A stretch of 64,000 bases of DNA, taken from contig CBDCOH010000002.1 in the NCBI GenBank assembly GCA_965219685.1, positions 1,856,001 through 1,920,000 of the forward strand, given 5' to 3'. A model generated the notes under the pieces. The model was not told the DNA's origin, searched no databases, and saw only the letters and a list, made by a program, of their open reading frames with translations. Source of the DNA: Candidatus Spongiisociaceae bacterium. Lineage in GTDB: Bacteria; Actinomycetota; Acidimicrobiia; Spongiisociales; Spongiisociaceae. Of the stretch, positions 31,516 through 58,264 are shown in pieces (positions within the stretch are counted from its first letter, which is position 1; the number at the start of each line of letters is the position of its first letter). The position numbers and the translations under genes are program-made.

Positions 31516-31517
31516 GC

Positions 31518-45156: not shown

Positions 45157-45813
45157 ATGAATGAAGCACGGTTGACCCTTTCCGAAGTCATTCCACCTAA
45201 GGCCGCGACAGCATGGACTGCCGACGCGGGACAGACCATCCGCATCACCGACTTGGAAGGTGGCCAAGTAGGGGACCTGGTCCTGTTCGCCAGGGACGAT
45301 CTTCGCGATCGCGTCTCGATTTCATGGACCCGCACCAGGAATATCCGCACAGCGTCCACATACGAGCCTCCCCTCGGTCTCGCCCCCGGCAACGCCATTT
45401 GGTCCACGGGCTACCGCGTCCTTGCCACCGTCATCGAGGACACCTCACCGGTAAGGGGAGTACATGACCTCTACGGGAGGATGTGCAACCGGGGCATGTA
45501 CGAAATGTACGGTGTGGCCCCCCAGGACGGCTGCTACGAACTGCTTCAGGGTGTCCTGACGCCACATGGGGTGGCTCCATCCGAGATTCCGGACGCGATC
45601 GGGGTGTTCATGAACACCCAACCCGATCCGGAGACCAGGGTCATGCGCATACATCAGCCGGTCACACGACCTAACGACAGCATTTCCATCCGAGTCGAGA
45701 TGGACGTGCTCGCAGCCATGAGCACATGCCCGATGGATGTCCTCGCGCCTACCAACAGCTACAACATCACACCCATGAAGGTCGAAGTGCTCACAGGCGG
45801 CAACAGTTCTTAG
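45157..45813 (+). CDS. Urea carboxylase-associated family protein (DUF1989)
   Basis: GQTIRITDLEGGQVGDL, HDLYGRMC, GCYE, VFMN, STCP. Confidence 0.85.
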   Translation: MNEARLTLSEVIPPKAATAWTADAGQTIRITDLEGGQVGDLVLFARDDLRDRVSISWTRTRNIRTASTYEPPLGLAPGNAIWSTGYRVLATVIEDTSPVRGVHDLYGRMCNRGMYEMYGVAPQDGCYELLQGVLTPHGVAPSEIPDAIGVFMNTQPDPETRVMRIHQPVTRPNDSISIRVEMDVLAAMSTCPMDVLAPTNSYNITPMKVEVLTGGNSS

Positions 45814-45877
45814 GGAGGTCGAGCCGACGGAATGACGCTGACAGACCGCCGCGTCAGTTACCAGACTCCCGTGACAG

Positions 45878-46525
45878 TCAGCCCAAGGGCCACGATTCCT
45901 TGGTATAAGCCATGTCCCAGAACATATACTCGTAATTGACGCCGATCCGGAAACTCTCCAACATCTGACCTCGGCGCTCATCGGAGAGACCTTCCGAGTA
46001 TCTGTCCACGAAGTCCCGGTAGTCACGACAGAGCCTGTGATGATCCTCGCTCATGTAGAACTCCCACCAGTCAGCTTGGAAGTCCGTGAGTGGAGCCCCC
46101 TCGAGCTGGTACCCGATAGCGTCGTAACTCAGAGGACAGGGAAGGAACGATCCCAGGTACTCTACCGGATCGCGGGCGAACGCCAGATAGAAAAGATGCC
46201 GTGAATATGCGTGCAAGGTCGGAGCGACGGGGGCACCGAAAGTACCTCCCAGTTTCCTGAGCATGTCCTCCTGGTGGTAGTACTCGTCGAGGATGAGCTT
46301 GGTATTGCGAAGGAAGAAGTCCCTGATCTCGGCGTTCTGTGCCTTGGCGGCGACGATCGAGCGGCATCGCAACACTGCATCTATGTAGTGAACGTTCTGC
46401 TCGAAGTAGAACGCTAACTTGTCATTGCCCAGAGTCCCCGCCTTGAGTTCTTTCAGAAAGGGATGCTCATAGAGTTGGTCGAACAGTTGTGCCGTCTCCT
46501 CCATCATGTGTGCGGTCCAACTCAC
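45878..46525 (-). CDS. tenA: TenA/thiaminase II family protein (Cys-type; Asp44-equivalent is Asn)
   Basis: HPFL..L..GTL, FYFEQN, LPC, YEYMFWDMAY. Confidence 0.85.
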   Translation of the reverse strand: MSWTAHMMEETAQLFDQLYEHPFLKELKAGTLGNDKLAFYFEQNVHYIDAVLRCRSIVAAKAQNAEIRDFFLRNTKLILDEYYHQEDMLRKLGGTFGAPVAPTLHAYSRHLFYLAFARDPVEYLGSFLPCPLSYDAIGYQLEGAPLTDFQADWWEFYMSEDHHRLCRDYRDFVDRYSEGLSDERRGQMLESFRIGVNYEYMFWDMAYTKESWPLG

Positions 46526-47877
46526 GGCGCCCCCCTCGACAACCTGCCCTCGACCAAGCGTGCGACAGCATCTCGGGCGCGTTGGGCAACTTCCGTCTCG
46601 TCAACGGTCTTGATGACGCGGTCTTCCATCACGATGCGTCCATCCACGATGACCGTGCGAACCATCCTGCCATTCGTGGCGAAGACCAGTCGCGGCAGAA
46701 CGTTGGCTCTGTATGCGGGCAGTCGGGTGTCGTAGAACTCACTTTCGGCATCAACCAGGATGACGTCCGCCTTGCGACCGGGCTCGATCACTCCTGCCTC
46801 GACTCCCAGAGCTCGCGCCCCGTTCACCGTTGCCATTCGCAGGACCTGCTCCGCCGGCATCAACTTCGGGTCAGCGTGGAGGGCTCGCTGTAGGTACGCC
46901 CCGGTGCGCATCACCTCGAAGATGTCCATGGTGTTGTTACCTTCGGTGGCGTCATGGCCGAGTCCGACGTTGACGCCGGCATCGAGAAGCTCACGTGCAG
47001 GTGCGATTCCCTCGCCCAGTTTCGAGTTCGCGGCCGGATTGTGGGATACATGCGTTCCCGTCTCCGCAATCATGCCGATGTCCTCGTCCGTCAGCCACAC
47101 ACAGTGGGCTGCCACTGTCGACGGTCCGAGCAGACCGTGGTCGTGGGCAACCCGGACCGGCCGCGACCCGAACTCCTGCATGCAGGTCTCGACTTCTTGC
47201 TGGGACTCGCTGAGGTGGATGTGCAGGCCGGTGTCCAGATCGGCCGCCATGCTCGCGGCGTCCCGCAGTATGTCTGCCGTCGCCAAGGGGATCCATTCGA
47301 CCCCTACGGCAACCCGGACCCGGTCGTCGGGCTCCCCTGCACACGCATGGAACGCAGCGCGGTTGTCCTCGAGCACGTCCAACCCGTCCTCGGGTCGCGC
47401 TACCAGGCTGCTGAGAGTGGCGCGGATGCCGACTGTCCTCGCGGCCCGGGCCAGGGACTCGACGTGTCTGAACATGTCGTTGACCGAGGTCGTGCCCCCC
47501 CGGAGGGCGCGGACATAGCTGTAAAGGGCGCCAGCGTAGGCGGTGTCCGGGTCGAGGTTCCGCATCATCGGATACCAGTGCCCGAAGAGTGCCTCCTCGA
47601 CCTCGAGGGACTCCGAATAGCCTCCCCGTTCGATGGAGGTGTGGAAGTGGAGGTCCACCAGACCGGGCATGACGAACAAGCCCGAGGCGTCGATCGTGCG
47701 GGCTGCACCCACCTCCGGCGCTGATCCCTCGCCCGTGGATACGATCCGATCTCCGCGGATGACCACATGGCCGCCGTGATATATGTCGGCGTGTTCGTTC
47801 AGGGTCACGACGGTTCCGTTCCGCACCACGATCGTGCTGGGCGGCGTACCGGCAGCCGGGACGGCGTCATCCGTCAT
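46522..47877 (-). CDS. Metal-dependent amidohydrolase (deaminase-like), paralog of 21755..23104
   Basis: PGLVDLHFH, NDMFR, HIHLSE, AHCVW, SHNPAAN, GLGHD. Confidence 0.88.
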   Translation of the reverse strand: MTDDAVPAAGTPPSTIVVRNGTVVTLNEHADIYHGGHVVIRGDRIVSTGEGSAPEVGAARTIDASGLFVMPGLVDLHFHTSIERGGYSESLEVEEALFGHWYPMMRNLDPDTAYAGALYSYVRALRGGTTSVNDMFRHVESLARAARTVGIRATLSSLVARPEDGLDVLEDNRAAFHACAGEPDDRVRVAVGVEWIPLATADILRDAASMAADLDTGLHIHLSESQQEVETCMQEFGSRPVRVAHDHGLLGPSTVAAHCVWLTDEDIGMIAETGTHVSHNPAANSKLGEGIAPARELLDAGVNVGLGHDATEGNNTMDIFEVMRTGAYLQRALHADPKLMPAEQVLRMATVNGARALGVEAGVIEPGRKADVILVDAESEFYDTRLPAYRANVLPRLVFATNGRMVRTVIVDGRIVMEDRVIKTVDETEVAQRARDAVARLVEGRLSRGAP

Positions 47878-47880
47878 ATT

Positions 47881-48672
47881 TCATTCCTCTCGCAGATGGA
47901 GTTCGGCCTTGAGGGTGCGCTCGAGGCGAAGGAACTCGTCCGTGATCTCGATCCCCTTCTCACGTGGACGGTCCAGTTCTACGTCGTAGACAGCCTGGAT
48001 CCGCCCTGGACGGGGAGTCATCACGTAGACCCGATCCGACAGGTAGACAGCCTCGGCAACGTCGTGGGTGATGAACAGCACGGTGGTGCGGATCTCCTCC
48101 CAGACGCTCATCAGCCACTGCTGCAGACCCGTCCTCGTGTAGCTGTCCAACGCGCCGAACGGCTCATCGAGCAACATTATCGATCGTTTCTGAACCATCG
48201 TCCGTAGAAACGCCACCCGCTGTCGCATACCCCCTGAGAGTTGGTCCGGGTAGGCGTGGGCGAATTCGGACAGCCCGAAACGCTCGAGGTAGGGCTTGAC
48301 CCCGTCTCGAGCCGATTTCCGGGATAGGCCGTCCATCTCGAGTCCGAGGCTGGCGTTCCCCAGGACGGTCCGCCACGGAAAGAGGAGATCCTTCTGGAAC
48401 ATGTAGGCAATCTCGCCCAGGCGGCTACCGCCCGGAACACCGTCGAGTCGGATCTCGCCCGAGTCGTACCCCTCGAGGCCCGCAACGATGTTGAAGAGGG
48501 TGCTCTTGCCGCAGCCGCTCGGACCGATGAGGGTGACGAACTCGCCCGGCCTGACCACCATATCGACACCGTCGAGAGCCATTACGGGGCCCGATTTCGG
48601 GTGGAAGGTCTTGGTAAGACCCTCTATGACCAGGCCTCCCATTCCGGAGGCAGCCGACCCCGTCAACGTCAC
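47881..48672 (-). CDS. ABC transporter ATP-binding protein (TauB/SsuB/ThiZ-like)
   Basis: GPSGCGKST, LSGGMRQR, LLDEPFGALD, ITHD. Confidence 0.92.
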   Translation of the reverse strand: MTLTGSAASGMGGLVIEGLTKTFHPKSGPVMALDGVDMVVRPGEFVTLIGPSGCGKSTLFNIVAGLEGYDSGEIRLDGVPGGSRLGEIAYMFQKDLLFPWRTVLGNASLGLEMDGLSRKSARDGVKPYLERFGLSEFAHAYPDQLSGGMRQRVAFLRTMVQKRSIMLLDEPFGALDSYTRTGLQQWLMSVWEEIRTTVLFITHDVAEAVYLSDRVYVMTPRPGRIQAVYDVELDRPREKGIEITDEFLRLERTLKAELHLREE

Positions 48673-49532
48673 CCCGCGTCTCCCTGAGTCTTGGGTCGGT
48701 ACCACGGCATGACCAATCGCTGGAGGATCACAACCCCACCGAACAGGAGAAGGGTCACGGCCGAAGTAACCGTCACGGCCCCGAACACGAGGTCGGTGCG
48801 CAAGGCGTTCTTCATGGTGAGCATGTAGATCCCGAGGCCTTCCACCGCACCGACGAACTGGGCGATCACGGCCGCTATCACCGCGAACGACATCGAGACC
48901 CGTATGCCGGTGAAGAGATGGGTGAGGGCACTCGGAAAGCGAACCTTCAGCAGAAGCCGGACGCGACCGGAGCCCATCGTCCGCAGGAGGTTCATGGCGT
49001 CCTCATCCGTCGAGGCAAGCCCCTGAGCGAGGCTGACAGCCACCGGGAAGAAGGTGTACATGGCGACGACGAACGCATGCGACGAGATTCCGAACCCGAA
49101 CCAGATCACCACGAGGGGCGCGATAGCGACGATCGGAAGGGTCTGGGAAACGACAATCACCGGATAGATACTCCGCCTGACCCAGCCGAAGCTGTCGACC
49201 ACGACACCGATCACGACTGCGAGCACCAGCGCGGACCCGAACCCGAGGAGCACCGTCTGGAGGGTTATCCAGGTGGCTCCCCACAGGTTCGAGCGATCAT
49301 CCCACATCGCATCGAGAACATCGGTGGGCGTCGGGAGCACCGCGGGCGAGATGTCCTGCCACCGGACGAACATCTCCCACGCGATCAGGAGAATCAGGAC
49401 GGTGACCAGAGGAGGCCAGGCCATGCGAGCGAGACCCGGTCCGGACGAGTCGGTCCCGCCCCGCGTCAGGTCCGGCGGGGATCCCCGCTCGCTTCCTAGA
49501 TAATGGGAGTTCTTCCTAGCTGACTTCAGCAC
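48669..49532 (-). CDS. ABC transporter permease (TauC/SsuC/ThiX-like)
   Basis: LPTPTDV, SQTLPIVAIAPLVVIWFGFG, GLG; start uncertain. Confidence 0.85.
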   Translation of the reverse strand: MLKSARKNSHYLGSERGSPPDLTRGGTDSSGPGLARMAWPPLVTVLILLIAWEMFVRWQDISPAVLPTPTDVLDAMWDDRSNLWGATWITLQTVLLGFGSALVLAVVIGVVVDSFGWVRRSIYPVIVVSQTLPIVAIAPLVVIWFGFGISSHAFVVAMYTFFPVAVSLAQGLASTDEDAMNLLRTMGSGRVRLLLKVRFPSALTHLFTGIRVSMSFAVIAAVIAQFVGAVEGLGIYMLTMKNALRTDLVFGAVTVTSAVTLLLFGGVVILQRLVMPWYRPKTQGDAG

Positions 49533-49581
49533 GCTGCGGCCCACGATGGCCGGCTGTCCGACCCGGACCTGGCGGTAGGGA

Positions 49582-50832
49582 TCAGCAGCCGGGGAGGAGT
49601 TCGTTGGTTGCGTACACCGCGAACTCGGGTGCCGTAACCACCTGGCCGTCCTCATCCAACAGGACACCTGACCGTTCCAACAGGCCGCCTATGCCCGCGA
49701 AGTGCGACGGCTGCACGCAGCCCCATGTCCCGGCCTCGTTGAGATACTGAGATGCCCGGTATTGCGCGCTCTCCCGAACCAGTGCCTCGCTCTGCTGGAG
49801 ATCCGTCACCTCGCTGATCAGAATCTCGGCTGCTTGATCGGGATTCTCCGCGGCAAAGGTGTACGCGTCGCCCAAGGCTCTGAGGGCTCTCTCCAGTACA
49901 TCGGGTTGCTGGTCGATCATCTCGGAGCGGGCGATGAAGACCACATCCGGATATACGATCTCCGGTATGAAGTCGACGTAGGGGAAGAGGCGCAGTTCGG
50001 TACCGCGGAGTCGAGCGGCGATCTCGCTCCATCCCTGGAAGACGGCACTGAAATCGACCCGGTCCTCTATCAAAGCCTCGATGGCGCCGCCCTGCAGGAC
50101 GACCTCTTGGAAGTCGCCGGGGGTCGCAGCTCCGGCCGCCATGAGCATCTCGGTCACGAGGGGTCTCTCGTGCGGGGTCCCGTAGCCGCCGTACGACTCG
50201 GCAGCGTCGAGTTCAGCGGCAGTCTGGTAGGGCGAGTCAGCCGGCACGACCAAGGCCACGTTGTTCTCCTGGATGATGGCTGCGACGATCTTCAGCGAAG
50301 AACCAAGTGCCACCTCACGGAGCACGTCCGGCGGATAGGCAATGCCCAGGTCCGCGTCGCCCGCCTCGACCAAGACACCCGTGACGGTGAACGCCCACGG
50401 AACGACCTCCACATCCAGGTTCTCGCGCTCGAACAGGCCCATGGAGCGAGCGATGAAGATGCCCGCATGGTTGGTGTTCGGGATGAAGTCGAGAGCGATC
50501 CTGACTGTTGCCCGTTCCGGAGGAGCCGCGGTCGTATCCGGCGCGGCCGTCGTATCAGGCGCCGCAGTCGTGACAGGAGCAGCCGTCGTATCAGGCGCCG
50601 CAGTCGTGACAGGAGCAGCCGTCGTATCAGGCGCCGCAGTCGTGACAGGAGCAGCCGTCGTATCAGGCGCCGCAGTCGTGGCAGGAGCAGCGGTCGTGGC
50701 AGCGGATGTCGCTGCTCCATCGGACGATGGTTCGGAATCGCCGCACGCAGCCATAATCAACACCAGCGCGGAAAAATAGATCAGCAGTTTCCGGGCGACA
50801 CCCATCCGCCCCTGCGGCGACCTGTACCTCAT
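49582..50832 (-). CDS. NMT1/THI5-like (ThiY-type) ABC substrate-binding lipoprotein
   Basis: Lipobox MAAC; TTAAP linker; LDFIPNTNHAGIFIA NMT1 signature. Confidence 0.85.
   Translation of the reverse strand: MRYRSPQGRMGVARKLLIYFSALVLIMAACGDSEPSSDGAATSAATTAAPATTAAPDTTAAPVTTAAPDTTAAPVTTAAPDTTAAPVTTAAPDTTAAPDTTAAPPERATVRIALDFIPNTNHAGIFIARSMGLFERENLDVEVVPWAFTVTGVLVEAGDADLGIAYPPDVLREVALGSSLKIVAAIIQENNVALVVPADSPYQTAAELDAAESYGGYGTPHERPLVTEMLMAAGAATPGDFQEVVLQGGAIEALIEDRVDFSAVFQGWSEIAARLRGTELRLFPYVDFIPEIVYPDVVFIARSEMIDQQPDVLERALRALGDAYTFAAENPDQAAEILISEVTDLQQSEALVRESAQYRASQYLNEAGTWGCVQPSHFAGIGGLLERSGVLLDEDGQVVTAPEFAVYATNELLPGC
50546..50689 (-). repeat. 4 x 36-bp coding tandem repeat (TTAAPVTTAAPD linker)
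   Basis: GCCGTCGTATCAGGCGCCGCAGTCGTGACAGGAGCA x3 plus one copy with one mismatch. Confidence 0.9.
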
Positions 50833-51120
50833 CGTCTCTGCCCTCCCATTGAAACAGGCGGGTCCGAGCGGGCCCGCCGCTGAAACCTTGCAAAACACGG
50901 TATCAGAGATAGGTCGGCCAGGCCACCAGATCTTATGTCGAATGTTCGGACTGATCCACCGTTCGGCCAACCTCGAGCAACAACTCGGGCGGCGTTACAC
51001 AGGTACGGCTCGTAAACGCGGGCCAGACTCACATCTGGCAGAACGTCCCACCGAAGCCGGTCGACAATCCCCTGAACGGGATCCACCCGGTCCCGTCCTA
51101 TCTGCTTGCAGATGCTCGCG

Positions 51121-52332: not shown

Positions 52333-53931
52333 ATGTCACGATATCTAGTCGTGGGCAATCCGGTGGTCACGCTTGCCGACGAAGCGTTTATCACCGACGG
52401 TGCGCTCATCGTCGAAGGCAAGCAGATCGTCGAGTCCGGACCTCGGGAAGAACTCGAAGCCAAGGGTCCGTTCGACCGCGTCCTCGGCTCACCGGACCAC
52501 TTCGTGATGCCCGGGTTCGTCGCCTCCCACTATCACTCCGAGTCGGCGCTCGGCCCCGGACTCTGGGAGATGCTGTTCGAACGCGCCAATATCTACGTGC
52601 ATCCGGTCTTCAAACCGATGGACGAGGAGATCATGTACAAGGCGATCCTCGTCACCCTCATGACCGCGGTCCGGGGAGGGATCACGACCACCGTCGACGC
52701 CTTCTACGGCCGGCCCGGCCCGAAGAACTTCGGGATGGACAACGCCCTGCAGGCGTACGATGACCTGGGCATGCGTACCGCGCTGGGGATTACTCTGCGC
52801 GATGAGAACCTCTATGTGCACGAGGCGAACGAGGACTTCCTGAACCGGCTCCCCGATCAGCTGGCCGAAGAGGTACGCAACTCTCCGATGGGATACGCCC
52901 TCCCGGCGGACGACGTGATTGCTGCATACGAGAATGCCGCAGGCACCTGGGATGGCCGGGACGACCGGCTGCGGGTGCTGCTGGCCCCGGACTGGACTCC
53001 GGCGGTCTCCGACGACCTCTACCGCCGGTGCCGGGCCGTCGCCACCGAGTACGACACCGGGATCATGACCCACTGCCTCGAGACCCGGGCGGAGATGCAG
53101 TACAACATCAAGCGCTACGGCGTCACCGCCATGCAGCGGCTCCACGACATCGGGCTTCTCGGGCCCGACGTGTCCCTCTCCCACTTCGTCTGGGCCACCG
53201 ACCGCGACATCGAGATCCTGGCCGACAGCGGGGCAGTGGCTGCAAACAACCCCGGCTCGAACCTGAGGCTGAGCACCGGGGTGTGCCGGGTACGCGACAT
53301 CCTCGACGCAGGCGGAGGGCTGGCGTTCGGAACCGACGCCATCTCCTTCTCCGAGCGTGACGACATGCTCCAGGAGGTCCGGCTCGGCCTCTACCTCCAA
53401 CGCCTACCCCGCGGCCCGGAGCCCGAGCACGGCCGTCTGGACTCGGAAGCCGTCCTGAGAGCCGCCGCCACCTACGGAGCACGCGCGGCGCGCGCCGAGG
53501 ACCGCATCGGCAGCCTGGCGGTGGGAAAGGACGCCGACCTCCTCATCCTCGACCGCAAGCGGGTCTTCGACAGACCGGCGCGGTTCTACGTGAGCCCGGT
53601 GCTCGACGTGATACTGGACCGGGCCGACGGGACCGACATCGAGACCGTGCTCATTGCCGGCAAGGTCGTCCTCGACAACGGCGTGATCACCACGCTGAAC
53701 GAGCAGAAGATCCGGGACGAGTACAACGAGGAGATCGAGAGGGGGCTGTTCAATCTCGAGGAGCCTTGGGCCCGATGGGCCGAGTTGGCGTTCGAGGTCG
53801 AGCCCTACCTCTTCGACTTCTACCGTCCCTGGGCGGAGGAACCGATGGTCCCCGGATACGAGTACAACACGACCACCGGTCCTGTCGGCTTCGACGGCGG
53901 CCGACGGATCGGAGGAGGAAACAGCCGATGA
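52333..53931 (+). CDS. Amidohydrolase (deaminase-like), paralog of 29941..31515
   Basis: Start MSRYLVVG; PGFVASHYH, THCLE, SHFVW, NNPGSNLRL, FGTD. Confidence 0.88.
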   Translation: MSRYLVVGNPVVTLADEAFITDGALIVEGKQIVESGPREELEAKGPFDRVLGSPDHFVMPGFVASHYHSESALGPGLWEMLFERANIYVHPVFKPMDEEIMYKAILVTLMTAVRGGITTTVDAFYGRPGPKNFGMDNALQAYDDLGMRTALGITLRDENLYVHEANEDFLNRLPDQLAEEVRNSPMGYALPADDVIAAYENAAGTWDGRDDRLRVLLAPDWTPAVSDDLYRRCRAVATEYDTGIMTHCLETRAEMQYNIKRYGVTAMQRLHDIGLLGPDVSLSHFVWATDRDIEILADSGAVAANNPGSNLRLSTGVCRVRDILDAGGGLAFGTDAISFSERDDMLQEVRLGLYLQRLPRGPEPEHGRLDSEAVLRAAATYGARAARAEDRIGSLAVGKDADLLILDRKRVFDRPARFYVSPVLDVILDRADGTDIETVLIAGKVVLDNGVITTLNEQKIRDEYNEEIERGLFNLEEPWARWAELAFEVEPYLFDFYRPWAEEPMVPGYEYNTTTGPVGFDGGRRIGGGNSR

Positions 53932-54596
53932 CCAGCGTTTGCGAAACCCTCCGGGACAGTTGCAGGGAGATCTGGCACGAACTCCACCACCATCCATTCG
54001 TCGAGGAACTCGCCGCAGGCACGCTTCCGGAGCGGAAGTTCGCCTTCTACATCGGCCAGAACATCGTGTTCCTCAGGGAACTGGCGAGGGCGATGGCTCT
54101 CGGCGTGGCAAAGGCGGACGACGAGGACACGATGCGTGACTTCGCCGCCATCGTCAGCAACATCGTGGATTTCGAACTGCCCAAGAACCGCCAGTTGCTC
54201 GCCGAGGTCCGCGCGATGGTGCCGGGGGCTACCGAGGAGGTCGTGATGGCGCCCGGAACGTTGTCCTACACCCGTCACCTGCTCACGGTGGCCTACGAGG
54301 GCAGGGCCGCGGACATCATGGCGTCGCTGACCCCCTGCGCCTGGAGTTACGGGGAGATCGGCAGGGAACGGCTTCCAGACGCGCCGGACCACCCGGTCTA
54401 CGGAACCTGGATCGAGTTCTTCGGTGGACAGGAATACTGGGACACGCTCGAGGAGGTGAAGTCGAAGCTGGAAGGCCTGTGCCAAGGTATGAGCGAGTCG
54501 GATCTCGCCAGGATCGAGGACATCTTCCGTACCAGCAGCCGCTTGGAGCAGGTGTTCTGGGACATGGCCTACAACGAGAGCACCTGGCCGGTCTGA
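53928..54596 (+). CDS. tenA: TenA/thiaminase II family protein (Cys-type; Asp44-equivalent is Asn)
   Basis: ATGA overlap; HPFVEELAAGTLP, FYIGQN, TPCAWSY, HPVYGTWI, LEQVFWDMAY. Confidence 0.88.
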   Translation: MTSVCETLRDSCREIWHELHHHPFVEELAAGTLPERKFAFYIGQNIVFLRELARAMALGVAKADDEDTMRDFAAIVSNIVDFELPKNRQLLAEVRAMVPGATEEVVMAPGTLSYTRHLLTVAYEGRAADIMASLTPCAWSYGEIGRERLPDAPDHPVYGTWIEFFGGQEYWDTLEEVKSKLEGLCQGMSESDLARIEDIFRTSSRLEQVFWDMAYNESTWPV

Positions 54597-54606: not shown

Positions 54607-56640
54607 ATGACATGGACCGTCGCCATCGACATCGGTGGCACGTTCACCGACGTGGTAGCCGACGACGGTACAGGCCGAAGGCTCACGGCCAAGGTGCCTA
54701 CCGTCCCCGCCGATCCCGCCGTCGGCCTTCTGAACGGCCTCGCGGTGCTCGGAAACCGGGGCATGCCGCTCGAGGATGTGAACCTGGTGTTCCACGGGAC
54801 CACCATCGCCACCAACGCGGTCATCAACGACGAACTGGCCCGGGTGGTGCTGCTCACGACCAAGGGCTTTCGCGACATCCTCACCTACCGATCGGGTTCC
54901 CGCCCCGACGCATACGACCTGCGCCAGAGCCGCCCGAGGGAGTTCATTCGACGCGATGACCGTCTAGAGGTCGACGAGCGGATCAGTTCCACCGGCGTCG
55001 TCCTACCCCTCACCGCGCCGGAGATCGACCGGGCTGTAGGTCGAGTCAGGAGCCGGAATCCGGAGGCGGTCGCCATCTCGTTCCTGTTCAGCTACCTGGA
55101 CGACGGCCACGAGCGGGCCATGGCCGATGCGCTCCGGTCGGCATGTCCGGGCATACCCATCTCCAGTTCGTCCGAGGTGGCGAGGGAGTTCCGCGAGTAC
55201 CCCCGCACGGTCACGACCGCCGTCAACGCCGGGCTCCGTCCGGTCGTGAGGGACTACCTGGGAGGGGCCGAGAGAGGTCTCAGGGATCTCGGAGTGCCCG
55301 GAAGCTTCCTCGTGATCCAATCGAACGGGGGAGGTGTTCCTGCCGCTCGAGCCGAGGCCGAGGCGCACAAACTCCTCGTATCCGGACCGGCGGCCGGCGT
55401 CGCCGGAGCGGTGGCTCTGGGGGCCGCCACCGGGCGAACCCACCTCCTCTCACTCGACATCGGTGGAACATCGGCGGATGTCTGCCTCATACGGGACGGG
55501 CGGGCTTCCATGTCGCCGATGCGGCACATCGAGTCCCACCCCATACTGGCTCCCTCCCTCGACATCCATTCGGCCGGAGCGGGGGGTGGGAGCATCGTCG
55601 ATGTGGACCGATCGGGGGCGTTGAAGGTCGGCCCTGCGAGCGCGGGTGCGTATCCGGGGCCGGCCGCGTACGGGCTCGGGGGTGAGAACGCCACCCTCAC
55701 CGATGCGCACCTGGTGGCGGGAACCCTCGGCGTGATGACCGCCCTGGGCGGGAGCCTCACCCTGGACCGCAACGCGGCCCTCGATGCGGTCCGCCGGGTC
55801 GGAACCAAGCTGGCCCTGAACACGCAGGCCACCGCCGAAGGGGTGCTGGCTATCGCCAACGCGCACCTCGAAGCCGCCATCCGGAGGGTCTCCATCGATC
55901 GCGGTGAGGATCCGAGACGCTACACCCTCGTGGCCTACGGTGGAGCCGGCCCACTCCATGCCGGTCAGTTGATCAGGGACCTGTCGATGCCGGAAGCGGT
56001 CATCCCGCGCCACCCCGGGCTGTTCTCCGCGGCGGGGCTGCTCGCGACGGATCTCAGGATCGACGAGTCGGCCACTGTCTTGACCACCATCGATCCCAGT
56101 TCCATCGCTGACATAGCCCGATGGTTCGATGCGACCGCGGGATCTCTTCGCGCCAGGTTGCGGTCGGACGGAATCGGGGAAGATCGAATCCGTGTCGCAC
56201 CTTCCATCGACTGCCGCTACAGGGGCCAGGGCTTCGAGTTGAACGTCCCGGTGGTGTCCAACGGACTCAGCCCCGAGGGGGTTCGGCAGGACTTCCGGCG
56301 CATTCACGACTCGCTGTATGGGCACACATCTGACGAACCTGTGATCGCAGTGACGCTGCGCCTGTCGGCCTTCGGGTCGCTGCCGATCGGAACGACGCGA
56401 CCCGCCGACGAGCCCCGCGGATCTCCGAACCCGGTTTCGAGCCGGACTGTCAAACTCCGGGAGATGTCCCGCCCCGCCGAAGTCCCCGTCTACTCGCGAG
56501 CTGATCTCGGGCGCGGAGCCAAACTTTCGGGACCGTGCATCGTCGAGCAACCCGACGCGACCACCCTCGTGCTCGACCGCCAGTCGGCCCGGGTGGACGA
56601 ATACCACAACCTGACGATCCGCGAGGCGGGCGATGGCTAA
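54607..56640 (+). CDS. Hydantoinase A / 5-oxoprolinase family subunit
   Basis: IDIGGTFTD, HGTTIATN, SGPAAG, DIGGTSAD, GAGGGS. Confidence 0.92.
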   Translation: MTWTVAIDIGGTFTDVVADDGTGRRLTAKVPTVPADPAVGLLNGLAVLGNRGMPLEDVNLVFHGTTIATNAVINDELARVVLLTTKGFRDILTYRSGSRPDAYDLRQSRPREFIRRDDRLEVDERISSTGVVLPLTAPEIDRAVGRVRSRNPEAVAISFLFSYLDDGHERAMADALRSACPGIPISSSSEVAREFREYPRTVTTAVNAGLRPVVRDYLGGAERGLRDLGVPGSFLVIQSNGGGVPAARAEAEAHKLLVSGPAAGVAGAVALGAATGRTHLLSLDIGGTSADVCLIRDGRASMSPMRHIESHPILAPSLDIHSAGAGGGSIVDVDRSGALKVGPASAGAYPGPAAYGLGGENATLTDAHLVAGTLGVMTALGGSLTLDRNAALDAVRRVGTKLALNTQATAEGVLAIANAHLEAAIRRVSIDRGEDPRRYTLVAYGGAGPLHAGQLIRDLSMPEAVIPRHPGLFSAAGLLATDLRIDESATVLTTIDPSSIADIARWFDATAGSLRARLRSDGIGEDRIRVAPSIDCRYRGQGFELNVPVVSNGLSPEGVRQDFRRIHDSLYGHTSDEPVIAVTLRLSAFGSLPIGTTRPADEPRGSPNPVSSRTVKLREMSRPAEVPVYSRADLGRGAKLSGPCIVEQPDATTLVLDRQSARVDEYHNLTIREAGDG

Positions 56641-58264
56641 GCGGAGACTGGACCCGGTCACGTACGAGTTGATCCACAGCCGACTCCGCCATGCAGCCCG
56701 TGAGATGGCGGTGATCCTGAAGCGTTCCAGCCACAGTCCGATCATCAGGGAGATGGAGGACTTCAGTTGCGCGATCTTCGCACCGGGAGGCGAGTCGGTG
56801 GCTCAGGACGAACGGATTCCCGCCCAACTGGGAGCGATGTCGTTGGCCGTCCAGACCTGCGTGGCGGAGTATCCGGATCCGGAGGACGTGCGGCCCGGAG
56901 ACGCCTTCCTCCTCAACCATCCGTACATGGGTTGCATGCATACACCCGACCTGAACCTCGTCATGCCGGTCTTCTCGGACGGCCTGGTAGTGGGGTGGGC
57001 CGGTTCGACCGCTCACCATGTCGATCTGGGCGGCCCCACCCCCGGCACCCTGGCGCCCCACCACCGCGAGCTGTTCGCGGAGGGTCTCATCTTCCCGCCC
57101 ATCAAGCTCTACCAGGAGGGCGAGGAGAACCGGGATCTCTTCAGGATGATCGCAGCCAATGTGAGAGAACCACGCGGACTCGTAGCCGACTTACGAGCCC
57201 AGCATGCCTCCTGCCTGACGGGGAAGATAGCGCTGCTACGCACGATGGAACGATACGGGCCGGACCACGTGCGCACCGCGTTCGACGAGATCCTCGACCG
57301 GACCGCCCGGCAGACCGCCGCCGCGCTGGCCGACCTGGATGACGGGGAGGCCGTCCGAACCGGTCACCTGGACGATGACGGCCTGGGGAGCGCTCCGGTT
57401 CCCATCCGCGTGCGTCTCTCCAAGTCCGGACAGAGCCTGAACGTGGACTTCACCGGGTCGTCCCCGCAGGTGGACGGAGCGCTGAACGTCCCGTGGGCGA
57501 GCACCCGAGCCTGCGTGGCCTATCTGATCCGCACCATGGTGGGCCTCGACATACCTTCCAACGACGGCTTGCTGGCCCCGGTCACCATCACCTGCCCACC
57601 CGGGACCATCCTCAATCCCCGGTTCCCTGCGGCGGTGTCCGTCAGGCACAACACCTGCCAAGTTGTCGCAGACACCCTGATCCGGGCCGCTTCCGACCTA
57701 TGGCCGGCCCGGGCGGTCGCAAGCAGCAGTGTCACCTTCTTCGGCCTGCAGATCGGGAGTAAGTCCCCCCAGACCGGCGAGACCGCGGTGCTGATGGAGG
57801 TGGTGGGCGGCGGGACGGGCGCGCATGACCACGGAGAGGGCATCGACGGGGTAGACACGTACATGTCCAACGTGGCCCTCCTTCCCGTGGAGGTGGCCGA
57901 GACCGAGTACTCCGTCCGCATACTCAAGAGCGAACTCGTCGAGGCCTCGTCGGGCGAGGGCCGGTTGCCCGGCGGCCTAGGAATCTGCCGTGAGTACCAG
58001 ATCCTCGACGTTCCCCAGATAGCCACGCTCTACTGCGAGCAGGCAGTCGACGAGCACCGGCCTCGGGGAGCGAGCGGGGGTGACGACGCCCGGCCGACCC
58101 GGGTCACCATTCTGGGACCTGACGGACGGGTCGTATCCAATGCCTCCAAGACTTCGACCTCCCTCGCGCCCGGGTCGGTGATCAGGGTGGAGACCAGTGG
58201 GGGTGGCGGCTACGGACCTTCCTCCACAGCGGGCACGACACCGGACATAGCCCGCTCCAGTTGA
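56633..58264 (+). CDS. Hydantoinase B / 5-oxoprolinase family subunit
   Basis: LDPVT, SPIIRE..DFS, NHPY..MHTPD, HHVDLGG, GGGGYG. Confidence 0.92.
   Translation: MAKRRLDPVTYELIHSRLRHAAREMAVILKRSSHSPIIREMEDFSCAIFAPGGESVAQDERIPAQLGAMSLAVQTCVAEYPDPEDVRPGDAFLLNHPYMGCMHTPDLNLVMPVFSDGLVVGWAGSTAHHVDLGGPTPGTLAPHHRELFAEGLIFPPIKLYQEGEENRDLFRMIAANVREPRGLVADLRAQHASCLTGKIALLRTMERYGPDHVRTAFDEILDRTARQTAAALADLDDGEAVRTGHLDDDGLGSAPVPIRVRLSKSGQSLNVDFTGSSPQVDGALNVPWASTRACVAYLIRTMVGLDIPSNDGLLAPVTITCPPGTILNPRFPAAVSVRHNTCQVVADTLIRAASDLWPARAVASSSVTFFGLQIGSKSPQTGETAVLMEVVGGGTGAHDHGEGIDGVDTYMSNVALLPVEVAETEYSVRILKSELVEASSGEGRLPGGLGICREYQILDVPQIATLYCEQAVDEHRPRGASGGDDARPTRVTILGPDGRVVSNASKTSTSLAPGSVIRVETSGGGGYGPSSTAGTTPDIARSS

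What the first reader, a model, noticed from the sequence alone, without database searches (positions are those of the whole stretch)
45157..58264. Candidate new aminopyrimidine/thiamine catabolic system: deaminases coupled to TenA variants with Asp44->Asn
Seen: twice, independently, a deaminase-type amidohydrolase is translationally coupled to a tenA (46522..47877 to 45878..46525; 52333..53931 to 53928..54596). The pairs flank an NMT1/THI5 ABC importer, with DUF1989 on one side and hydantoinase A/B on the other. Both TenAs keep the catalytic Cys (LPC/TPC) and Glu (E..FW) but read Q-N (codons 46394-46396 and 54060-54062) where B. subtilis TenA has Q-D44. Established: Asp44 contacts the aminopyrimidine N3/4-amino edge, and canonical salvage uses ylmB-tenA-thiXYZ with no deaminase. 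Inference: the substrate is first deaminated and these TenAs act on 4-oxo-pyrimidines (oxythiamine/oxo-HMP-like). DUF1989, the amidohydrolases and ATP-dependent HyuAB would then open the ring, i.e. catabolism or detoxification rather than salvage.
Basis: partly seen in the sequence, partly recalled or inferred. Interest (0 to 1): 0.82.

Follow-up and report, generated by a model that had tools for sequence, protein, structure and literature searches.

The report
Catabolic gene island built around variant thiaminase-II
A sponge-associated actinobacterium that cannot make vitamin B1 carries four unusual copies of the B1-pyrimidine salvage enzyme TenA, wired to deaminase-type hydrolases and a vitamin-B12 mutase module, and the same gene set recurs in soil bacteria, pointing to an undescribed pathway that breaks down such pyrimidines rather than recycling them.

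Summary
Both amidohydrolase-TenA pairs overlap by 4 nt, and both TenAs keep the Cys and Glu but read Gln-Asn where B. subtilis has Gln-Asp44.

Gln-Asn (QN) marks minority clades: 17 of 151 best representatives. QN TenAs sit next to homologues of the window's amidohydrolases in 30 of 39 loci. Ordinary Gln-Asp (QD) TenAs do so in 2 of 96.

Soil metagenomes and three Actinomycetota genomes hold a compact cluster. It runs M20, unknown, B12 acyl-CoA mutase, CoA-transferase, M20, F420 oxidoreductase, epimerase-like, GntR, TenA(QN), alcohol dehydrogenase (ADH), aldehyde dehydrogenase (ALDH), two Amidohydro_1 and one Amidohydro_2. Apart from GntR, every member tested has a 48-72% identical counterpart in the window. 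The system therefore spans about 7.5 kb to beyond the window's end.

The genome lacks ThiC, ThiE, ThiN and any TPP riboswitch. TPP riboswitches precede 7 of 10 QD tenA-ABC operons and 0 of 12 QN loci.

I conclude catabolism, not salvage. HyuAB and DUF1989 are lineage-specific add-ons. The substrate, and whether it is 4-oxo, remain untested.

The parts
7580..8902 (+). Zn alcohol dehydrogenase. It is the orthologue of the ADH that directly follows TenA(QN) in soil clusters. The true start is probably later in the ORF.
   Evidence: Pfam ADH_N/ADH_zinc_N. 64-68% identical over about 340 aa to the ADH beside QN TenA in L147, L151, L157, L171, L199 and L229-L231.
8942..10459 (+). Aldehyde dehydrogenase
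   Evidence: Pfam Aldedh 571 bits. 62-64% identical to the ALDH of L157, L171 and L229-L231.
11487..12701 (+). M20 (ArgE/DapE-type) deacylase
   Evidence: Pfam Peptidase_M20. 66-72% identical to the first gene of the compact cluster. Its L229 orthologue scores 167 bits on the ArgE/DapE model, below the 217.6 cut-off.
12677..13651 (+). Conserved protein of unknown family
   Evidence: 66% identical to L229:16417-17427. No Pfam match.
13657..15650 (+). Split B12-dependent acyl-CoA mutase: B12-binding subunit 13657-14061 and catalytic subunit 14058-15650
   Evidence: Pfam B12-binding and MM_CoA_mutase 658 bits. 70-71% identical to L147, L151 and L229-L231.
15647..16855 (+). Family III CoA-transferase
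   Evidence: Pfam CoA_transf_3. 56-61% identical to the cluster orthologues.
16852..17949 (+). Second M20 hydrolase
   Evidence: Pfam. 48-56% identical to the cluster orthologues.
17954..18937 (+). Luciferase-like (F420-class) oxidoreductase
   Evidence: Pfam Bac_luciferase. 54-69% identical to the LLM of L147, L151, L157, L171, L199 and L229-L231. The L229 and L171 orthologues match F420/Mer-like NCBIfam models best, below their cut-offs.
18934..19365 (+). Glyoxalase-fold protein, methylmalonyl-CoA-epimerase-like
   Evidence: Pfam Glyoxalase_4. The L229 orthologue scores 82 bits on TIGR03081, below the 115 cut-off. 51-62% identical.
21809..23098 (-). Amidohydro_1 'AH1_d', the closest counterpart of the 444-aa amidohydrolase of the soil clusters
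   Evidence: Pfam. 57-67% identical to L100, L102, L117, L171, L198 and L229-L231. 47% identical to AH1_a.
29941..32480 (+). Amidohydro_1 'AH1_e' (29941-31515) followed by Amidohydro_2 'AH2_d' (31509-32480). This pair has no TenA.
   Evidence: Pfam. AH1_e is 55-60% identical to AH1_b and AH1_c. AH2_d is 92% identical to AH2_a.
41750..43423 (-). Amidase-signature amidase
   Evidence: Pfam Amidase 335 bits. Kept at 77-84% identity in the sister islands L195-L197.
44001..44966 (+). Amidohydro_2 'AH2_a'
   Evidence: Pfam. HxH motif. Model pLDDT 79.7. Its fold neighbours are ACMSD-type decarboxylases, the LigJ hydratase, the LigY hydrolase and BB4693. 55-65% identical to the gene beside QN TenA in L100 and L102.
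45157..45813 (+). DUF1989 protein, divergent from TenA1. Lineage-specific neighbour.
   Evidence: Pfam 127 bits. Present beside TenA1 in L007-L011 only.
45878..46525 (-). TenA1, QN variant (N44, C130, E199)
   Evidence: Pfam 84 bits. TIGR04306 89 bits, below the 130 cut-off. Alignment to PDB TenAs.
46522..47877 (-). Amidohydro_1 'AH1_a' (TRZ/ATZ and SAH-deaminase-like). Its stop overlaps the TenA1 start.
   Evidence: Pfam 222 bits. Best PDB match is 4f0r, an MTA/SAH deaminase. HxH and HxxE motifs. GTGA overlap.
47881..50970 (-). ABC importer: ATPase 47881-48705, permease 48669-49667 and NMT1/THI5-type binding protein 49582-50970
   Evidence: Pfam. The only PDB matches of the binding protein are 4nmy (131 bits) and 3ix1, the formylaminopyrimidine-binding ThiY (61 bits).
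51121..52242 (-). Amidohydro_2 'AH2_b' (likely start near 52125)
   Evidence: Pfam. 65-72% identical to the last gene of the compact clusters L117, L171, L229 and L230.
52333..53931 (+). Amidohydro_1 'AH1_b' (532 aa). Its stop overlaps the TenA2 start.
   Evidence: Pfam 157 bits. HxH and HxxE motifs. ATGA overlap. 52-57% identical to L100, L171 and L229.
53928..54596 (+). TenA2, QN variant (N45, C137, E207)
   Evidence: Pfam 141 bits. TIGR04306 163.6 bits, above the 130 cut-off. Alignment to PDB TenAs.
54607..58264 (+). HyuA/HyuB ATP-dependent hydantoinase/lactamase pair. Accessory insertion.
   Evidence: Pfam. Caprolactamase models 415 and 234 bits, below the 1000 cut-offs. Absent at this place in L195 and L197.
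58210..59196 (-). F420-dependent LLM-class oxidoreductase
   Evidence: TIGR03619 243.7 bits, above the 166.9 cut-off. RutA only 52.9 bits against a 498.3 cut-off.
59170..61636 (+). Two Zn alcohol dehydrogenases (59170-60273 and 60530-61636)
   Evidence: Pfam. The first is class-III/NDMA-ADH-like, 360 bits against a 440 cut-off.
61690..63999 (+). Molybdenum hydroxylase large subunit (xanthine dehydrogenase/aldehyde oxidase family). It runs off the window. Just beyond lie TenA3, a Dpp-type importer, AH2_c, TenA4, AH1_c and an MBL lactonase-like gene (L006).
   Evidence: Pfam. The continuation is in L006.

Best explanation
The two amidohydrolase-TenA pairs belong to a large catabolic system for a pyrimidine that carries a substituted methyl group at C5. 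The most likely substrates are the thiamine pyrimidine family: amino-HMP, formylamino-HMP, HMP or thiamine itself.

Steps shown by sequence and context:
- A distinct TenA lineage keeps the catalytic Cys and Glu but has Asn for Asp44. It also changes neighbouring pocket positions.
- This lineage is genetically tied, in unrelated soil Actinomycetota and in sponge Acidimicrobiia, to one gene set: a ThiY-like ABC importer, two kinds of deaminase-type Amidohydro_1 enzymes, an Amidohydro_2 enzyme of the ACMSD decarboxylase/hydratase fold, an alcohol and an aldehyde dehydrogenase, an F420-type oxidoreductase, two M20 deacylases, a family III CoA-transferase, an epimerase-like protein and a split B12 acyl-CoA mutase.

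Steps inferred:
1. The compound is imported.
2. An Amidohydro_1 converts the 4-amino group to 4-oxo. Gene overlap suggests this happens next to the TenA step. Asn favours, but does not prove, deamination first.
3. TenA(QN) adds its Cys at C6 and swaps the C5-methylene substituent for OH.
4. ADH and ALDH oxidise a CH2OH or CHO carbon.
5. The second Amidohydro_1, the Amidohydro_2 and the F420 enzyme reduce, decarboxylate or open the ring.
6. The M20 enzymes remove the acyl or amidine remnant of C2.
7. The branched C4 acid is taken to succinyl-CoA by the CoA-transferase, the epimerase and the B12 mutase.

In this genome the system is amplified into four TenA, five closely related Amidohydro_1 and four closely related Amidohydro_2 paralogues, with two importers. 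HyuAB and DUF1989 are local additions.
For: QN is a clade trait:
- 30 QN, 62 QD and 1 other among 93 TenA hits in 79 genome loci. QN occurs only in the sponge Acidimicrobiia set, two further MAGs and one archaeal copy.
- 63 QN and 53 QD among 116 relatives of TenA2.
- 17 QN (query included), 126 QD and 8 other among the query plus the 150 best of 3005 representatives at E<=1e-10, even with a QN-built profile.
- The N/D state needs 6 changes on a 185-row tree, against 58 for shuffled labels.
- Sites that change together with D44N: the next residue goes Tyr to Leu/Ile/Val, the residue aligned to B. subtilis His86 goes to Asn/Gln, and Thr/Met goes to Phe at TenA2 F164.

Linkage:
- Among TenA hits with at least 4 kb of flank, 30 of 39 QN have an AH1 or AH2 homologue within 6 kb (at least 40% identity, at least 50% coverage).
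- Only 2 of 96 QD do, and both of those lie in clusters that also hold a QN TenA.
- Counted by 70%-identity clusters: QN 8 with and 8 without, QD 1 with and 36 without.
- Compact clusters with the same order occur in L171, L147, L151 and L157 (metagenomes) and in L229-L231 (three Actinomycetota genomes).
- Reciprocal test: close AH1_a orthologues (E<=1e-80) occur in 4 of 401 sampled Actinomycetota. These are G000, G433, G600 and G703, the genomes where a QN cluster was found. A TenA of any kind occurs in 82 of 401.
- Those three genomes also carry a separate QD TenA next to an ABC importer about 12 kb away.
- Apart from GntR, every compact-cluster member tested has a 48-72% identical counterpart in the window.

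Not salvage:
- The genome (96.7% complete) has no ThiC, ThiE or ThiN, only a 27.7-bit partial ThiG-like hit, and no TPP riboswitch.
- ThiC is missing in 5 of 5 further genomes tested. ThiE is missing in 4 of those 5, including all three sponge relatives.
- TPP aptamers lie at or close to the upstream side of the tenA gene in 7 of 10 QD tenA-ABC loci, and in 0 of 12 QN loci.
- GntR/FCD regulators sit beside QN TenA in L147, L151 and L229, and one lies in L006.

Enzyme intactness: HxH and HxxE motifs are present in AH1_a, AH1_b and AH1_c.

The binding protein's only solved relatives are 4nmy and the formylaminopyrimidine-binding ThiY 3ix1.

Role of the Asp: its carboxylate hydrogen-bonds the amino groups of the bound pyrimidine, and D44A strongly lowers activity (PMC5623701, passages read).
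Against: - No activity, ligand or expression data exist.
- The substrate is inferred only from family membership (TenA, ThiY-like binding protein) and from neighbours.
- Thiamine vitamers are scarce in nature. That sits oddly with a system of over 60 kb and with full mineralisation to succinyl-CoA.
- The thiamine pyrimidine has one exocyclic amine, yet the compact cluster always carries two deaminase-type enzymes.
- Asn can hydrogen-bond a neutral 4-aminopyrimidine as well as a 4-oxo one, so the D-to-N change does not fix the order of steps.
- 9 of 39 QN TenAs with enough flank had no AH1 or AH2 hit at my thresholds. Three of these (L147, L151, L157) do show a partial AH1 at the contig end.
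- Many loci are close kin, so the counts overstate independence. The 70%-cluster count for QN is 8 with and 8 without.
- The window's own ADH/ALDH/mutase block lies about 26-38 kb from the TenA genes, separated by what looks like inserted DNA. Co-regulation here is not shown.
- The Amidohydro_2 fold neighbours include hydratases and hydrolases as well as decarboxylases.
Confidence: 0.55

Rival explanations
1. Same catabolic machinery, but the substrate is not thiamine-derived. It would be another heterocycle with a leaving group on a ring-methylene. Candidates are 5-hydroxymethyl- or 5-aminomethyl-uracil or -cytosine from modified nucleic acids, a 2-substituted pyrimidine natural product, or the pterin side chain of folate.
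For: - There are two deaminase-type enzymes per cluster, while HMP has a single amine.
- Asn at the 4-substituent contact would suit a uracil-like edge. As recalled, an Asn-to-Asp swap in uracil-DNA glycosylase shifts it towards cytosine.
- Amidohydro_2 neighbours include isoorotate (uracil-5-carboxylate) decarboxylase at rank 28.
- Molybdenum hydroxylases and a CDA-fold deaminase lie in the island.
- The size of the system argues for an abundant substrate.
- AH1 proteins score on 8-oxoguanine-deaminase and triazine-hydrolase models, below cut-off.
Against: - The closest solved relatives of the binding protein are 4nmy and ThiY.
- TenA2 passes NCBI's thiaminase II cut-off.
- Every TenA that I know to be characterised acts on thiamine-type pyrimidines (recalled).
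- No nucleoside- or folate-specific gene was seen in the clusters.
Confidence: 0.27
2. Detoxification of thiamine antivitamins (oxythiamine, bacimethrin, methoxythiamine) in a thiamine auxotroph. The Amidohydro_1 enzymes strip the 2-methoxy or 4-amino groups and QN TenA splits the oxo-analogue. This is.
For: - The host must import intact thiamine, so analogues would be harmful.
- TRZ/ATZ-type hydrolases remove methoxy, chloro and amino groups from azines (family knowledge; matches).
- Bacimethrin and methoxythiamine are released into natural waters (PMC12345177, passages read).
Against: - Picomolar toxins do not explain a CoA-transferase/B12-mutase module that feeds carbon into central metabolism, nor dedicated high-capacity importers.
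- Importing a toxin in order to destroy it is unusual.
Confidence: 0.1
3. Ordinary salvage. The amidohydrolases merely replace YlmB as the deformylase of formylaminopyrimidine, and the QN TenAs make HMP for thiamine synthesis.
For: - The layout of tenA, an NMT1-type ABC importer and an amidohydrolase resembles ylmB-tenA-thiXYZ.
- TenA2 scores 163.6 bits on TIGR04306, above the 130 cut-off.
- M20 (YlmB-family) genes are in the cluster.
Against: - No ThiC, ThiE, ThiN or real ThiG is present to use HMP. The same holds for ThiC and ThiE in three sister genomes.
- No TPP riboswitch is present, although 7 of 10 QD operons have one.
- Genomes G433, G600 and G703 keep a separate QD TenA with an ABC importer beside the QN cluster.
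- ADH, ALDH and the mutase have no role in salvage.
Confidence: 0.05
4. The AH1_b-TenA2-HyuAB block is a creatinine/N-methylhydantoin or other lactam pathway (deaminase plus ATP-dependent hydantoinase), and TenA2 is a bystander or regulator.
For: - Deaminase plus HyuAB is the known creatinine route (recalled).
- Sponge-associated setting.
- A creatinase-like M24 gene lies in L006.
- TenA-family regulators exist, for example LysR2 (search listing; PDB 9wdg).
Against: - HyuAB is absent from the same position in L195 and L197, while AH1_b-TenA2 stays.
- The genome has five other HyuA paralogues.
- The catalytic Cys and Glu of TenA2 are conserved across the clade.
Confidence: 0.03

Closest known systems
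Thiamine pyrimidine salvage: ThiXYZ importer, YlmB deformylase and TenA (thiaminase II) of Bacillus halodurans and B. subtilis
   Same: It shares the TenA fold with the catalytic Cys and Glu. It shares an NMT1/ThiY-type ABC importer. A hydrolase gene sits beside tenA.
   Different: Asp44 is replaced by Asn, with co-varying pocket changes. The partners are cog0402-type Amidohydro_1 and Amidohydro_2 enzymes, not only an M20 deformylase. There is no TPP riboswitch (against 101). The host has no HMP-using thiamine synthesis genes. The cluster carries ADH, ALDH, a CoA-transferase and a B12 mutase.
Fungal thymidine salvage: 5-hydroxymethyluracil to 5-formyluracil to uracil-5-carboxylate to uracil, ending with isoorotate decarboxylase (recalled)
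   Same: The logic is to remove a C5 one-carbon substituent by stepwise oxidation and then act with an Amidohydro_2-fold enzyme. IDCase is among the fold neighbours of AH2_a.
   Different: Oxidation here would use NAD-type ADH and ALDH, not a 2-oxoglutarate dioxygenase. AH2 is closer to the uncharacterised BB4693 than to IDCase. Decarboxylase activity is not shown.
Reductive or oxidative thymine catabolism feeding methylmalonate (semialdehyde) into methylmalonyl-CoA and succinyl-CoA (recalled)
   Same: Ring reduction or opening is followed by a branched C4 acid. An epimerase-like protein, a B12 acyl-CoA mutase and a class-III aminotransferase are nearby.
   Different: There is no dihydropyrimidine dehydrogenase, dihydropyrimidinase or ureidopropionase set. 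An F420-class oxidoreductase, cog0402 amidohydrolases and M20 enzymes stand in their place. The mutase is split (530 + 134 aa) and its substrate is unknown.
s-Triazine and purine/pterin deaminase branch of the amidohydrolase superfamily (AtzA/TrzN, SAH/MTA deaminase, 8-oxoguanine deaminase)
   Same: AH1_a to AH1_e share the fold and the HxH and HxxE motifs. The best PDB and NCBIfam matches come from this branch.
   Different: No equivalog cut-off is reached. No member of this branch is known to me to be paired with TenA.
Creatinine deaminase with N-methylhydantoinase (HyuAB) (recalled)
   Same: A deaminase-type amidohydrolase lies upstream of HyuA/HyuB.
   Different: A TenA gene sits between them, and HyuAB is dispensable in sister islands.

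Membership tests
TenA / thiaminase II (PF03070; NCBIfam TIGR04306 salvage_TenA) | Match to PF03070 above the gathering score | tested here: met
   TenA1 scores 84 bits and TenA2 140.6 bits against a cut-off of 22. TenA3 and TenA4 also match.
TenA / thiaminase II (PF03070; NCBIfam TIGR04306 salvage_TenA) | Score above the equivalog cut-off of TIGR04306 (130 bits) | tested here: inconclusive
   TenA2 scores 163.6 bits and passes. TenA1 scores 89.2 bits and fails. The soil QN TenA of L229 scores 129 bits and just fails.
TenA / thiaminase II (PF03070; NCBIfam TIGR04306 salvage_TenA) | Catalytic Cys135 and Glu205 (B. subtilis numbering) | tested here: met
   Both align. Cys is invariant in A2 and A3 and Glu is invariant in A3.
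TenA / thiaminase II (PF03070; NCBIfam TIGR04306 salvage_TenA) | Asp44 contacting the amino groups of the pyrimidine | tested here: not met
   Asn stands here in all four paralogues. The role of the Asp is taken from PMC5623701 passages.
TenA / thiaminase II (PF03070; NCBIfam TIGR04306 salvage_TenA) | Salvage context: thiamine synthesis genes in the genome, or TPP-riboswitch control | tested here: not met
   No ThiC, ThiE, ThiN or TPP aptamer. 0 of 12 QN loci carry an aptamer, against 7 of 10 QD loci.
TenA / thiaminase II (PF03070; NCBIfam TIGR04306 salvage_TenA) | Aminopyrimidine aminohydrolase or thiaminase activity | not testable with these tools
   This needs an enzyme assay.
Deaminase-type amidohydrolases (PF01979, TRZ/ATZ / cog0402 branch) | PF01979 match, N-terminal HxH metal ligands and the HxxE motif | tested here: met
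   (Pfam). HFH77 and HLSE221 in AH1_a, HYH66 and HCLE247 in AH1_b, HFH68 and HLLE247 in AH1_c.
Deaminase-type amidohydrolases (PF01979, TRZ/ATZ / cog0402 branch) | Membership of a named equivalog (SAH/MTA, 5'-deoxyadenosine, 8-oxoguanine or guanine deaminase, or chlorohydrolase) | tested here: not met
   All NCBIfam matches are below cut-off. The best for AH1_a is 352 bits against 609.
Amidohydro_2 / ACMSD-type decarboxylases (PF04909), including isoorotate decarboxylase | PF04909 match and TIM-barrel fold with HxH | tested here: met
   (Pfam). (HxH). Model pLDDT 79.7 with Foldseek probability 1.0 to decarboxylases of this fold.
Amidohydro_2 / ACMSD-type decarboxylases (PF04909), including isoorotate decarboxylase | Specific relation to a characterised decarboxylase rather than to a hydratase or hydrolase | tested here: inconclusive
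   The best sequence match is the uncharacterised BB4693. Fold neighbours mix decarboxylases, the LigJ hydratase and the LigY hydrolase at 15-21% identity.
ThiY-type pyrimidine binding proteins (NMT1/THI5, PF09084) | PF09084 match and similarity to the solved formylaminopyrimidine-binding ThiY | tested here: met
   PF09084 132 bits. 3ix1 at 60.6 bits is one of only two PDB matches. Ligand not tested.
ATP-dependent hydantoinase/oxoprolinase/caprolactamase (HyuA/HyuB) | Pfam Hydantoinase_A/B matches. Being a conserved part of the TenA(QN) system. | tested here: not met
   The family match is met. The equivalog cut-offs are not reached. The pair is absent beside TenA2 in L195 and L197 and from the soil and actinobacterial QN loci.

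The most novel reading that the evidence does not exclude
QN-TenAs are a new functional class of the thiaminase-II fold that works on 4-oxo (uracil-like) pyrimidines. They would open a hitherto undescribed, complete bacterial route that mineralises the pyrimidine half of vitamin B1, or of its oxo- and methoxy-antivitamins. The route would run through an ADH/ALDH oxidation, F420-dependent reduction, amidohydrolase ring cleavage and a B12 mutase to succinyl-CoA. Such a pathway would be a real biological sink in the B1 cycle of soils and of sponge holobionts. It would be carried by organisms that are themselves B1 auxotrophs.
Probability: 0.3. Interest if true: 0.85.

Novelty: new variant of a known kind. 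Interest (0 to 1): 0.74.

Why it matters
TenA is annotated everywhere as a salvage enzyme, and NCBI's thiaminase II model would name TenA2 so. This work separates a sequence-defined subgroup from that reading. The subgroup is marked by Gln-Asn, an aliphatic next residue and Asn/Gln for His86. Its genomic wiring is catabolic and not controlled by TPP.

If the substrate is thiamine-type, this would be, to my knowledge, the first gene-level description of bacterial degradation of the B1 pyrimidine. Only decades-old physiology (recalled) speaks to that question. It also bears on vitamin budgets in soils, oceans and sponge symbioses.

The finding assigns a testable role to several orphan families: BB4693-like Amidohydro_2, two cog0402 subgroups, a 325-aa protein with no Pfam match, and a split acyl-CoA mutase. 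It also offers a natural Asp/Asn specificity switch to test.

Tried and rejected
- RutA-like ring opening by the luciferase-like genes was rejected. The window's LLM passes the F420 class model and scores 52.9 bits on RutA against a 498.3 cut-off.
- HyuAB and DUF1989 as core steps were rejected on conservation.
- No RNA holder was listed for 45878-54596, so I did not use read laying.
- Literature searches found no paper that describes such a cluster. The searches covered TenA with amidohydrolase or thiamine degradation, thiaminase II with catabolism, gene cluster and deaminase, thiamine as nitrogen source or degradation pathway, and 'thiamine catabolism' and variants. They cover only the held open-access library. 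Supplements could not be opened.
- A search for BB4693 or 3IRS gave nothing relevant.
- The Dpp-type binding protein has only generic peptide-binding relatives.
- The GntR of the soil cluster has no close counterpart in this genome (35% identity, elsewhere).
- My first ORF picking in loci chose shadow ORFs. It was replaced by a third-position G+C filter.
- The frame 60349-61596 (no Pfam match) was replaced by 60530-61636, an ADH.
- The '168-aa' ORF 12868-13374(-) is probably the shadow of 12677-13651(+).
- L200-L203 (QD loci, only 3.7 kb each) showed no TPP aptamer. This is uninformative because the flanks are short.
- All 29 best TenA loci in the phylum sample are QD. Three of those loci (L205, L206, L213) come from genomes flagged unpublished (G716, G422, G517). 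The tallies also include the flagged genomes G567 and G700.

Full report
OBSERVATION

It adds an Amidohydro_2 gene at 51121-52242(-) between the importer and the second pair.

The two couplings are genuine 4-nt overlaps. One is GTGA at 46525-46522 on the minus strand. The other is ATGA at 53928-53931, behind a GGAGGAGG motif.

HMMER alignments to solved TenAs put N44 of TenA1 and N45 of TenA2 opposite the Asp of the Q-D motif of the B. subtilis and H. pylori enzymes. The Cys and the Glu-x-x-Phe-Trp are kept. In TenA2 the positions aligned to B. subtilis Tyr47 and Tyr163 are Phe. This rests on my own count on the alignment.

THE GENOME

The window is G000:C2:1856001-1920000. The genome holds only four TenA genes, all within about 30 kb and all QN.
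- TenA3 lies just past the window end. TenA4 lies 9 kb further on.
- TenA4 sits between an Amidohydro_2 and an Amidohydro_1, behind a Dpp-type importer.

Close relatives of these proteins come from sponge-associated Acidimicrobiia MAGs. Partial copies of the stretch occur in sponge, coral and marine metagenome runs.

TenA is rare in the class. TenA2 finds a match at E<=1e-10 in 4 of 401 sampled Acidimicrobiia genomes, the window's own genome included.

IS QN ORDINARY? NO
- Among 93 TenA hits in 79 genome loci, 30 are QN, 62 are QD and 1 is HD. The QN ones are the sponge Acidimicrobiia set, two further MAGs (L022, L023) and one archaeal second copy.
- Among 116 full-length relatives of TenA2, 63 are QN and 53 are QD. 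QN reaches down to about 40% identity and includes proteins named from Herbiconiux and Frankia.
- An exhaustive profile search of 1.84 billion representatives gave 3005 TenA-family hits at E<=1e-10. Of the query plus the best 150, 17 are QN, 126 are QD and 8 are other. This holds although the profile was built from QN sequences.
- On a FastTree of 185 rows (redundancy cut at 80% identity) the N/D state needs 6 changes, against a mean of 58 for shuffled labels. TenA1, TenA3 and TenA4 fall in a clade of 20 rows, 19 of them N. TenA2 falls in a clade of 26 rows, 25 of them N.
- D44N does not come alone. The next residue changes from mostly Tyr to Leu/Ile/Val. The residue aligned to B. subtilis His86 becomes Asn or Gln. 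A Thr/Met position (TenA2 F164) becomes Phe.

IS THE AMIDOHYDROLASE LINK CONSERVED? YES, AND FAR BEYOND THE NEAR RELATIVES

Near relatives keep these modules:
- NMT1 binding protein, permease, ATPase, AH1_a and TenA1, with DUF1989 divergent (L007-L011).
- TenA3, the Dpp importer, AH2_c, TenA4, AH1_c and MBL (L012-L019, L021, L024).

In JGI metagenome contigs with TenAs only 33-46% identical to TenA2, the QN ones sit with homologues of AH1_a (about 50% identity), AH1_b/c (52-58%) and AH2_a/b (55-72%), an NMT1-type binding protein and a Zn-ADH. The QD ones sit with an ATPase-permease-binding protein trio or alone.

Counts over all TenA hits with at least 4 kb of flank:
- 30 of 39 QN have an AH1 or AH2 homologue within 6 kb (at least 40% identity, at least 50% coverage).
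- 2 of 96 QD do, and both (L097, L102) lie in clusters that also contain a QN TenA.
- At the level of 70%-identity clusters the table is QN 8 with and 8 without, QD 1 with and 36 without (Fisher p = 1.1e-4). Kinship still inflates this figure.
- Three of the 'QN without' cases (L147, L151, L157) show a partial AH1 at the contig end.

A compact, co-linear cluster emerges. In L229 (genome G703) the order is: M20 deacylase, unknown, B12 subunit, acyl-CoA mutase, CoA-transferase III, M20, luciferase-like oxidoreductase, glyoxalase-fold epimerase-like protein, GntR/FCD, TenA(QN), Zn-ADH, ALDH, AH1 (444 aa), AH1 (525 aa), AH2. L230 and L231 (two further Actinomycetota genomes) and the metagenome contigs L147, L151, L157 and L171 share this layout or parts of it.

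The same three genomes carry a separate QD TenA beside an ABC importer about 12 kb away.

Reciprocal test. In a sample of 401 Actinomycetota, close AH1_a orthologues (E<=1e-80) occur in 4 genomes. These are the window's own genome and G433, G600 and G703, the ones where a QN cluster was found. A TenA of some kind occurs in 82 of 401. I checked the QN/QD state only for the 29 best loci (all QD) and for three second copies (all QN). The remaining weaker hits were not typed.

THE WINDOW HOLDS THE WHOLE SET

- ADH 7580-8902 and ALDH 8942-10459.
- A rhodanese, 10512-11477.
- M20 11487-12701 and an unknown gene 12677-13651.
- The B12 subunit 13657-14061 and the acyl-CoA mutase 14058-15650.
- CoA-transferase 15647-16855 and a second M20 16852-17949.
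- Luciferase-like oxidoreductase 17954-18937 and the epimerase-like gene 18934-19365.
- A further AH1 at 21809-23098(-).
- An AH1-AH2 pair at 29941-32480.

Each of these, the rhodanese excepted, is 48-72% identical to its counterpart in the compact clusters.

Downstream lie an F420-class LLM, two ADHs and a molybdenum hydroxylase. In L006 follow TenA3, the Dpp importer, AH2_c, TenA4, AH1_c, an MBL lactonase-like gene, a SnoaL-like gene, a CDA-fold deaminase, a GntR/FCD regulator and a class-III aminotransferase.

The system thus spans from about 7.5 kb to at least 14 kb beyond the window. A lower-G+C stretch at about 32-40 kb interrupts it.

SALVAGE OR CATABOLISM?

The genome is 96.7% complete with 5.9% contamination. 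Searches of it gave these results:
- No match to ThiC, ThiE (TMP-TENI) or ThiN.
- Only 27.7-bit and 22.7-bit partial hits to ThiG.
- One ThiD/PdxK-type kinase.
- No TPP riboswitch.

ThiC was missing in all five further genomes tested (G401, G402, G403, G703, G433). ThiE was missing in four of them, all but G433. HMP made by TenA therefore has no visible use for thiamine synthesis in the sponge lineage.

The regulatory contrast is sharp. TPP aptamers lie at or close to the upstream side of the tenA gene in 7 of 10 QD tenA-ABC loci tested, 9 aptamers in all. They occur in 0 of 12 QN loci. GntR/FCD regulators flank QN TenAs in L147, L151 and L229.

Together with the ADH, ALDH, CoA-transferase and B12 mutase, this argues for catabolism.

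WHAT IS NOT SUPPORTED
- HyuAB follows TenA2 in this genome, in L007 and in G401 (L196). In G402 and G403 the LLM gene follows TenA2 directly.
- No HyuA, HyuB or DUF1989 hit appeared in the soil and actinobacterial QN loci.
- The genome holds five other HyuA paralogues.
- The luciferase-like genes are F420-class, not RutA.

MECHANISM

Shown:
- The enzymes look intact. The TenAs keep Cys and Glu. AH1_a, AH1_b and AH1_c keep HxH and HxxE. The AH2 proteins keep HxH.
- The AH2_a model (pLDDT 79.7) resembles the ACMSD-type non-oxidative decarboxylases. These include isoorotate decarboxylase, and also the LigJ hydratase, the LigY hydrolase and the uncharacterised BB4693.
- The binding protein's only solved relatives are 4nmy and the formylaminopyrimidine-binding ThiY.

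Established:
- The Asp carboxylate hydrogen-bonds the amino groups of the bound pyrimidine, and D44A cripples B. subtilis TenA (PMC5623701, passages read).

Inferred:
1. Import.
2. Deamination at C4 by an AH1.
3. Cys-C6 addition by TenA(QN) and exchange of the C5-methylene substituent for OH.
4. Oxidation by ADH and ALDH.
5. Reduction, decarboxylation or ring opening by the F420 enzyme, the second AH1 and AH2.
6. Deacylation by the M20 enzymes.
7. Entry of a branched C4 acid into succinyl-CoA through the CoA-transferase, the epimerase and the B12 mutase.

The order of steps 2 and 3 is open. As recalled, an Asn-to-Asp swap shifts uracil-DNA glycosylase from uracil towards cytosine, which gives a precedent for an oxo/amino switch. 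Asn can, however, also pair with a neutral aminopyrimidine.

RIVALS
- A non-thiamine 5-substituted pyrimidine or a pterin is the main rival. Arguments for it are the two deaminases per cluster, the size of the system and the scarcity of B1 vitamers.
- Antivitamin detoxification is possible. It does not explain the central-metabolism module.
- Plain salvage is contradicted by the missing synthesis genes, the missing riboswitches and the coexistence of QD and QN operons in one genome.
- A creatinine or hydantoin reading of AH1_b-TenA2-HyuAB fails on conservation.

COMPARISON AND NOVELTY

By fold and catalytic residues the proteins are members of the TenA family. They fail the Asp44 feature and the salvage context. 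TenA1 also fails the NCBI equivalog cut-off.

Four literature searches of the held library found no description of a TenA-amidohydrolase-mutase cluster or of a gene-level thiamine-pyrimidine catabolic pathway. Subscription papers and supplements were not visible.

I rate this a new variant of a known kind. A new pathway is plausible, but its substrate is unproven.

LIMITS
- There are no activity or expression data.
- Many loci are kin.
- The thresholds are my own.
- Three of the 29 QD loci, and parts of the tallies, come from genomes flagged unpublished. No conclusion depends on them.

Noticed in passing
window 32000-41600: This lower-G+C stretch (0.57-0.63 against about 0.66) holds a 1669-aa ORF at 33528-38537(-) with no Pfam match. 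An AAA_14/DUF4143 ATPase gene (37649-38908(-)) and a sulfatase (39333-41564(-)) lie beside it. A second AAA_14/DUF4143 gene lies at 20011-20910(-). It looks like foreign DNA inserted into the catabolic island.
   Followed up: partly
window 2-6376: The window opens with more of the same enzyme kinds: Amidohydro_2 (2-895), Amidohydro_1 (981-2414(-)), a second molybdenum hydroxylase large subunit (2697-5147(-)) and an SDR (5498-6376). The island may therefore extend upstream of the window.
   Followed up: no
window 10512-11477: A two-domain rhodanese (sulfurtransferase) sits inside the ADH-ALDH-M20 block. It had no counterpart at my thresholds in the soil and actinobacterial clusters. Whether it has any link to a sulfur-bearing substrate, such as the thiazole half of thiamine, is unknown.
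   Followed up: partly
window 12677-13651 and L229:16417-17427: A protein of about 325 aa with no Pfam or NCBIfam match is conserved at 66% identity between the sponge genome and the soil cluster. It always lies between the M20 gene and the B12 mutase subunit.
   Followed up: partly
L097:2542-3258 and L102:3866-4573: Two soil contigs carry a second, divergent QD TenA (motif F-[VI]-G-Q-D-R-L-Y-L) in the same operon as a QN TenA, separated by the binding-protein gene. The two types may act on different forms of the substrate.
   Followed up: no
L006:12477-19046 (window end +12.5 to +19 kb): A CDA-fold deaminase, a GntR/FCD regulator, a 2-hydroxyacid dehydrogenase, a class-III aminotransferase, another luciferase-like gene and a creatinase/M24-like hydrolase follow the TenA4 module. 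The M24 and aminotransferase pair recalls ectoine or beta-amino-acid catabolism (recalled).
   Followed up: no
window 23182-29876: Next to AH1_d lie a carboxyl-transferase, succinyl-CoA-ligase-like alpha and ATP-grasp subunits, an AMP-forming acyl-CoA ligase and an MBL-fold hydrolase. They are possibly further CoA-level steps of the same pathway.
   Followed up: no
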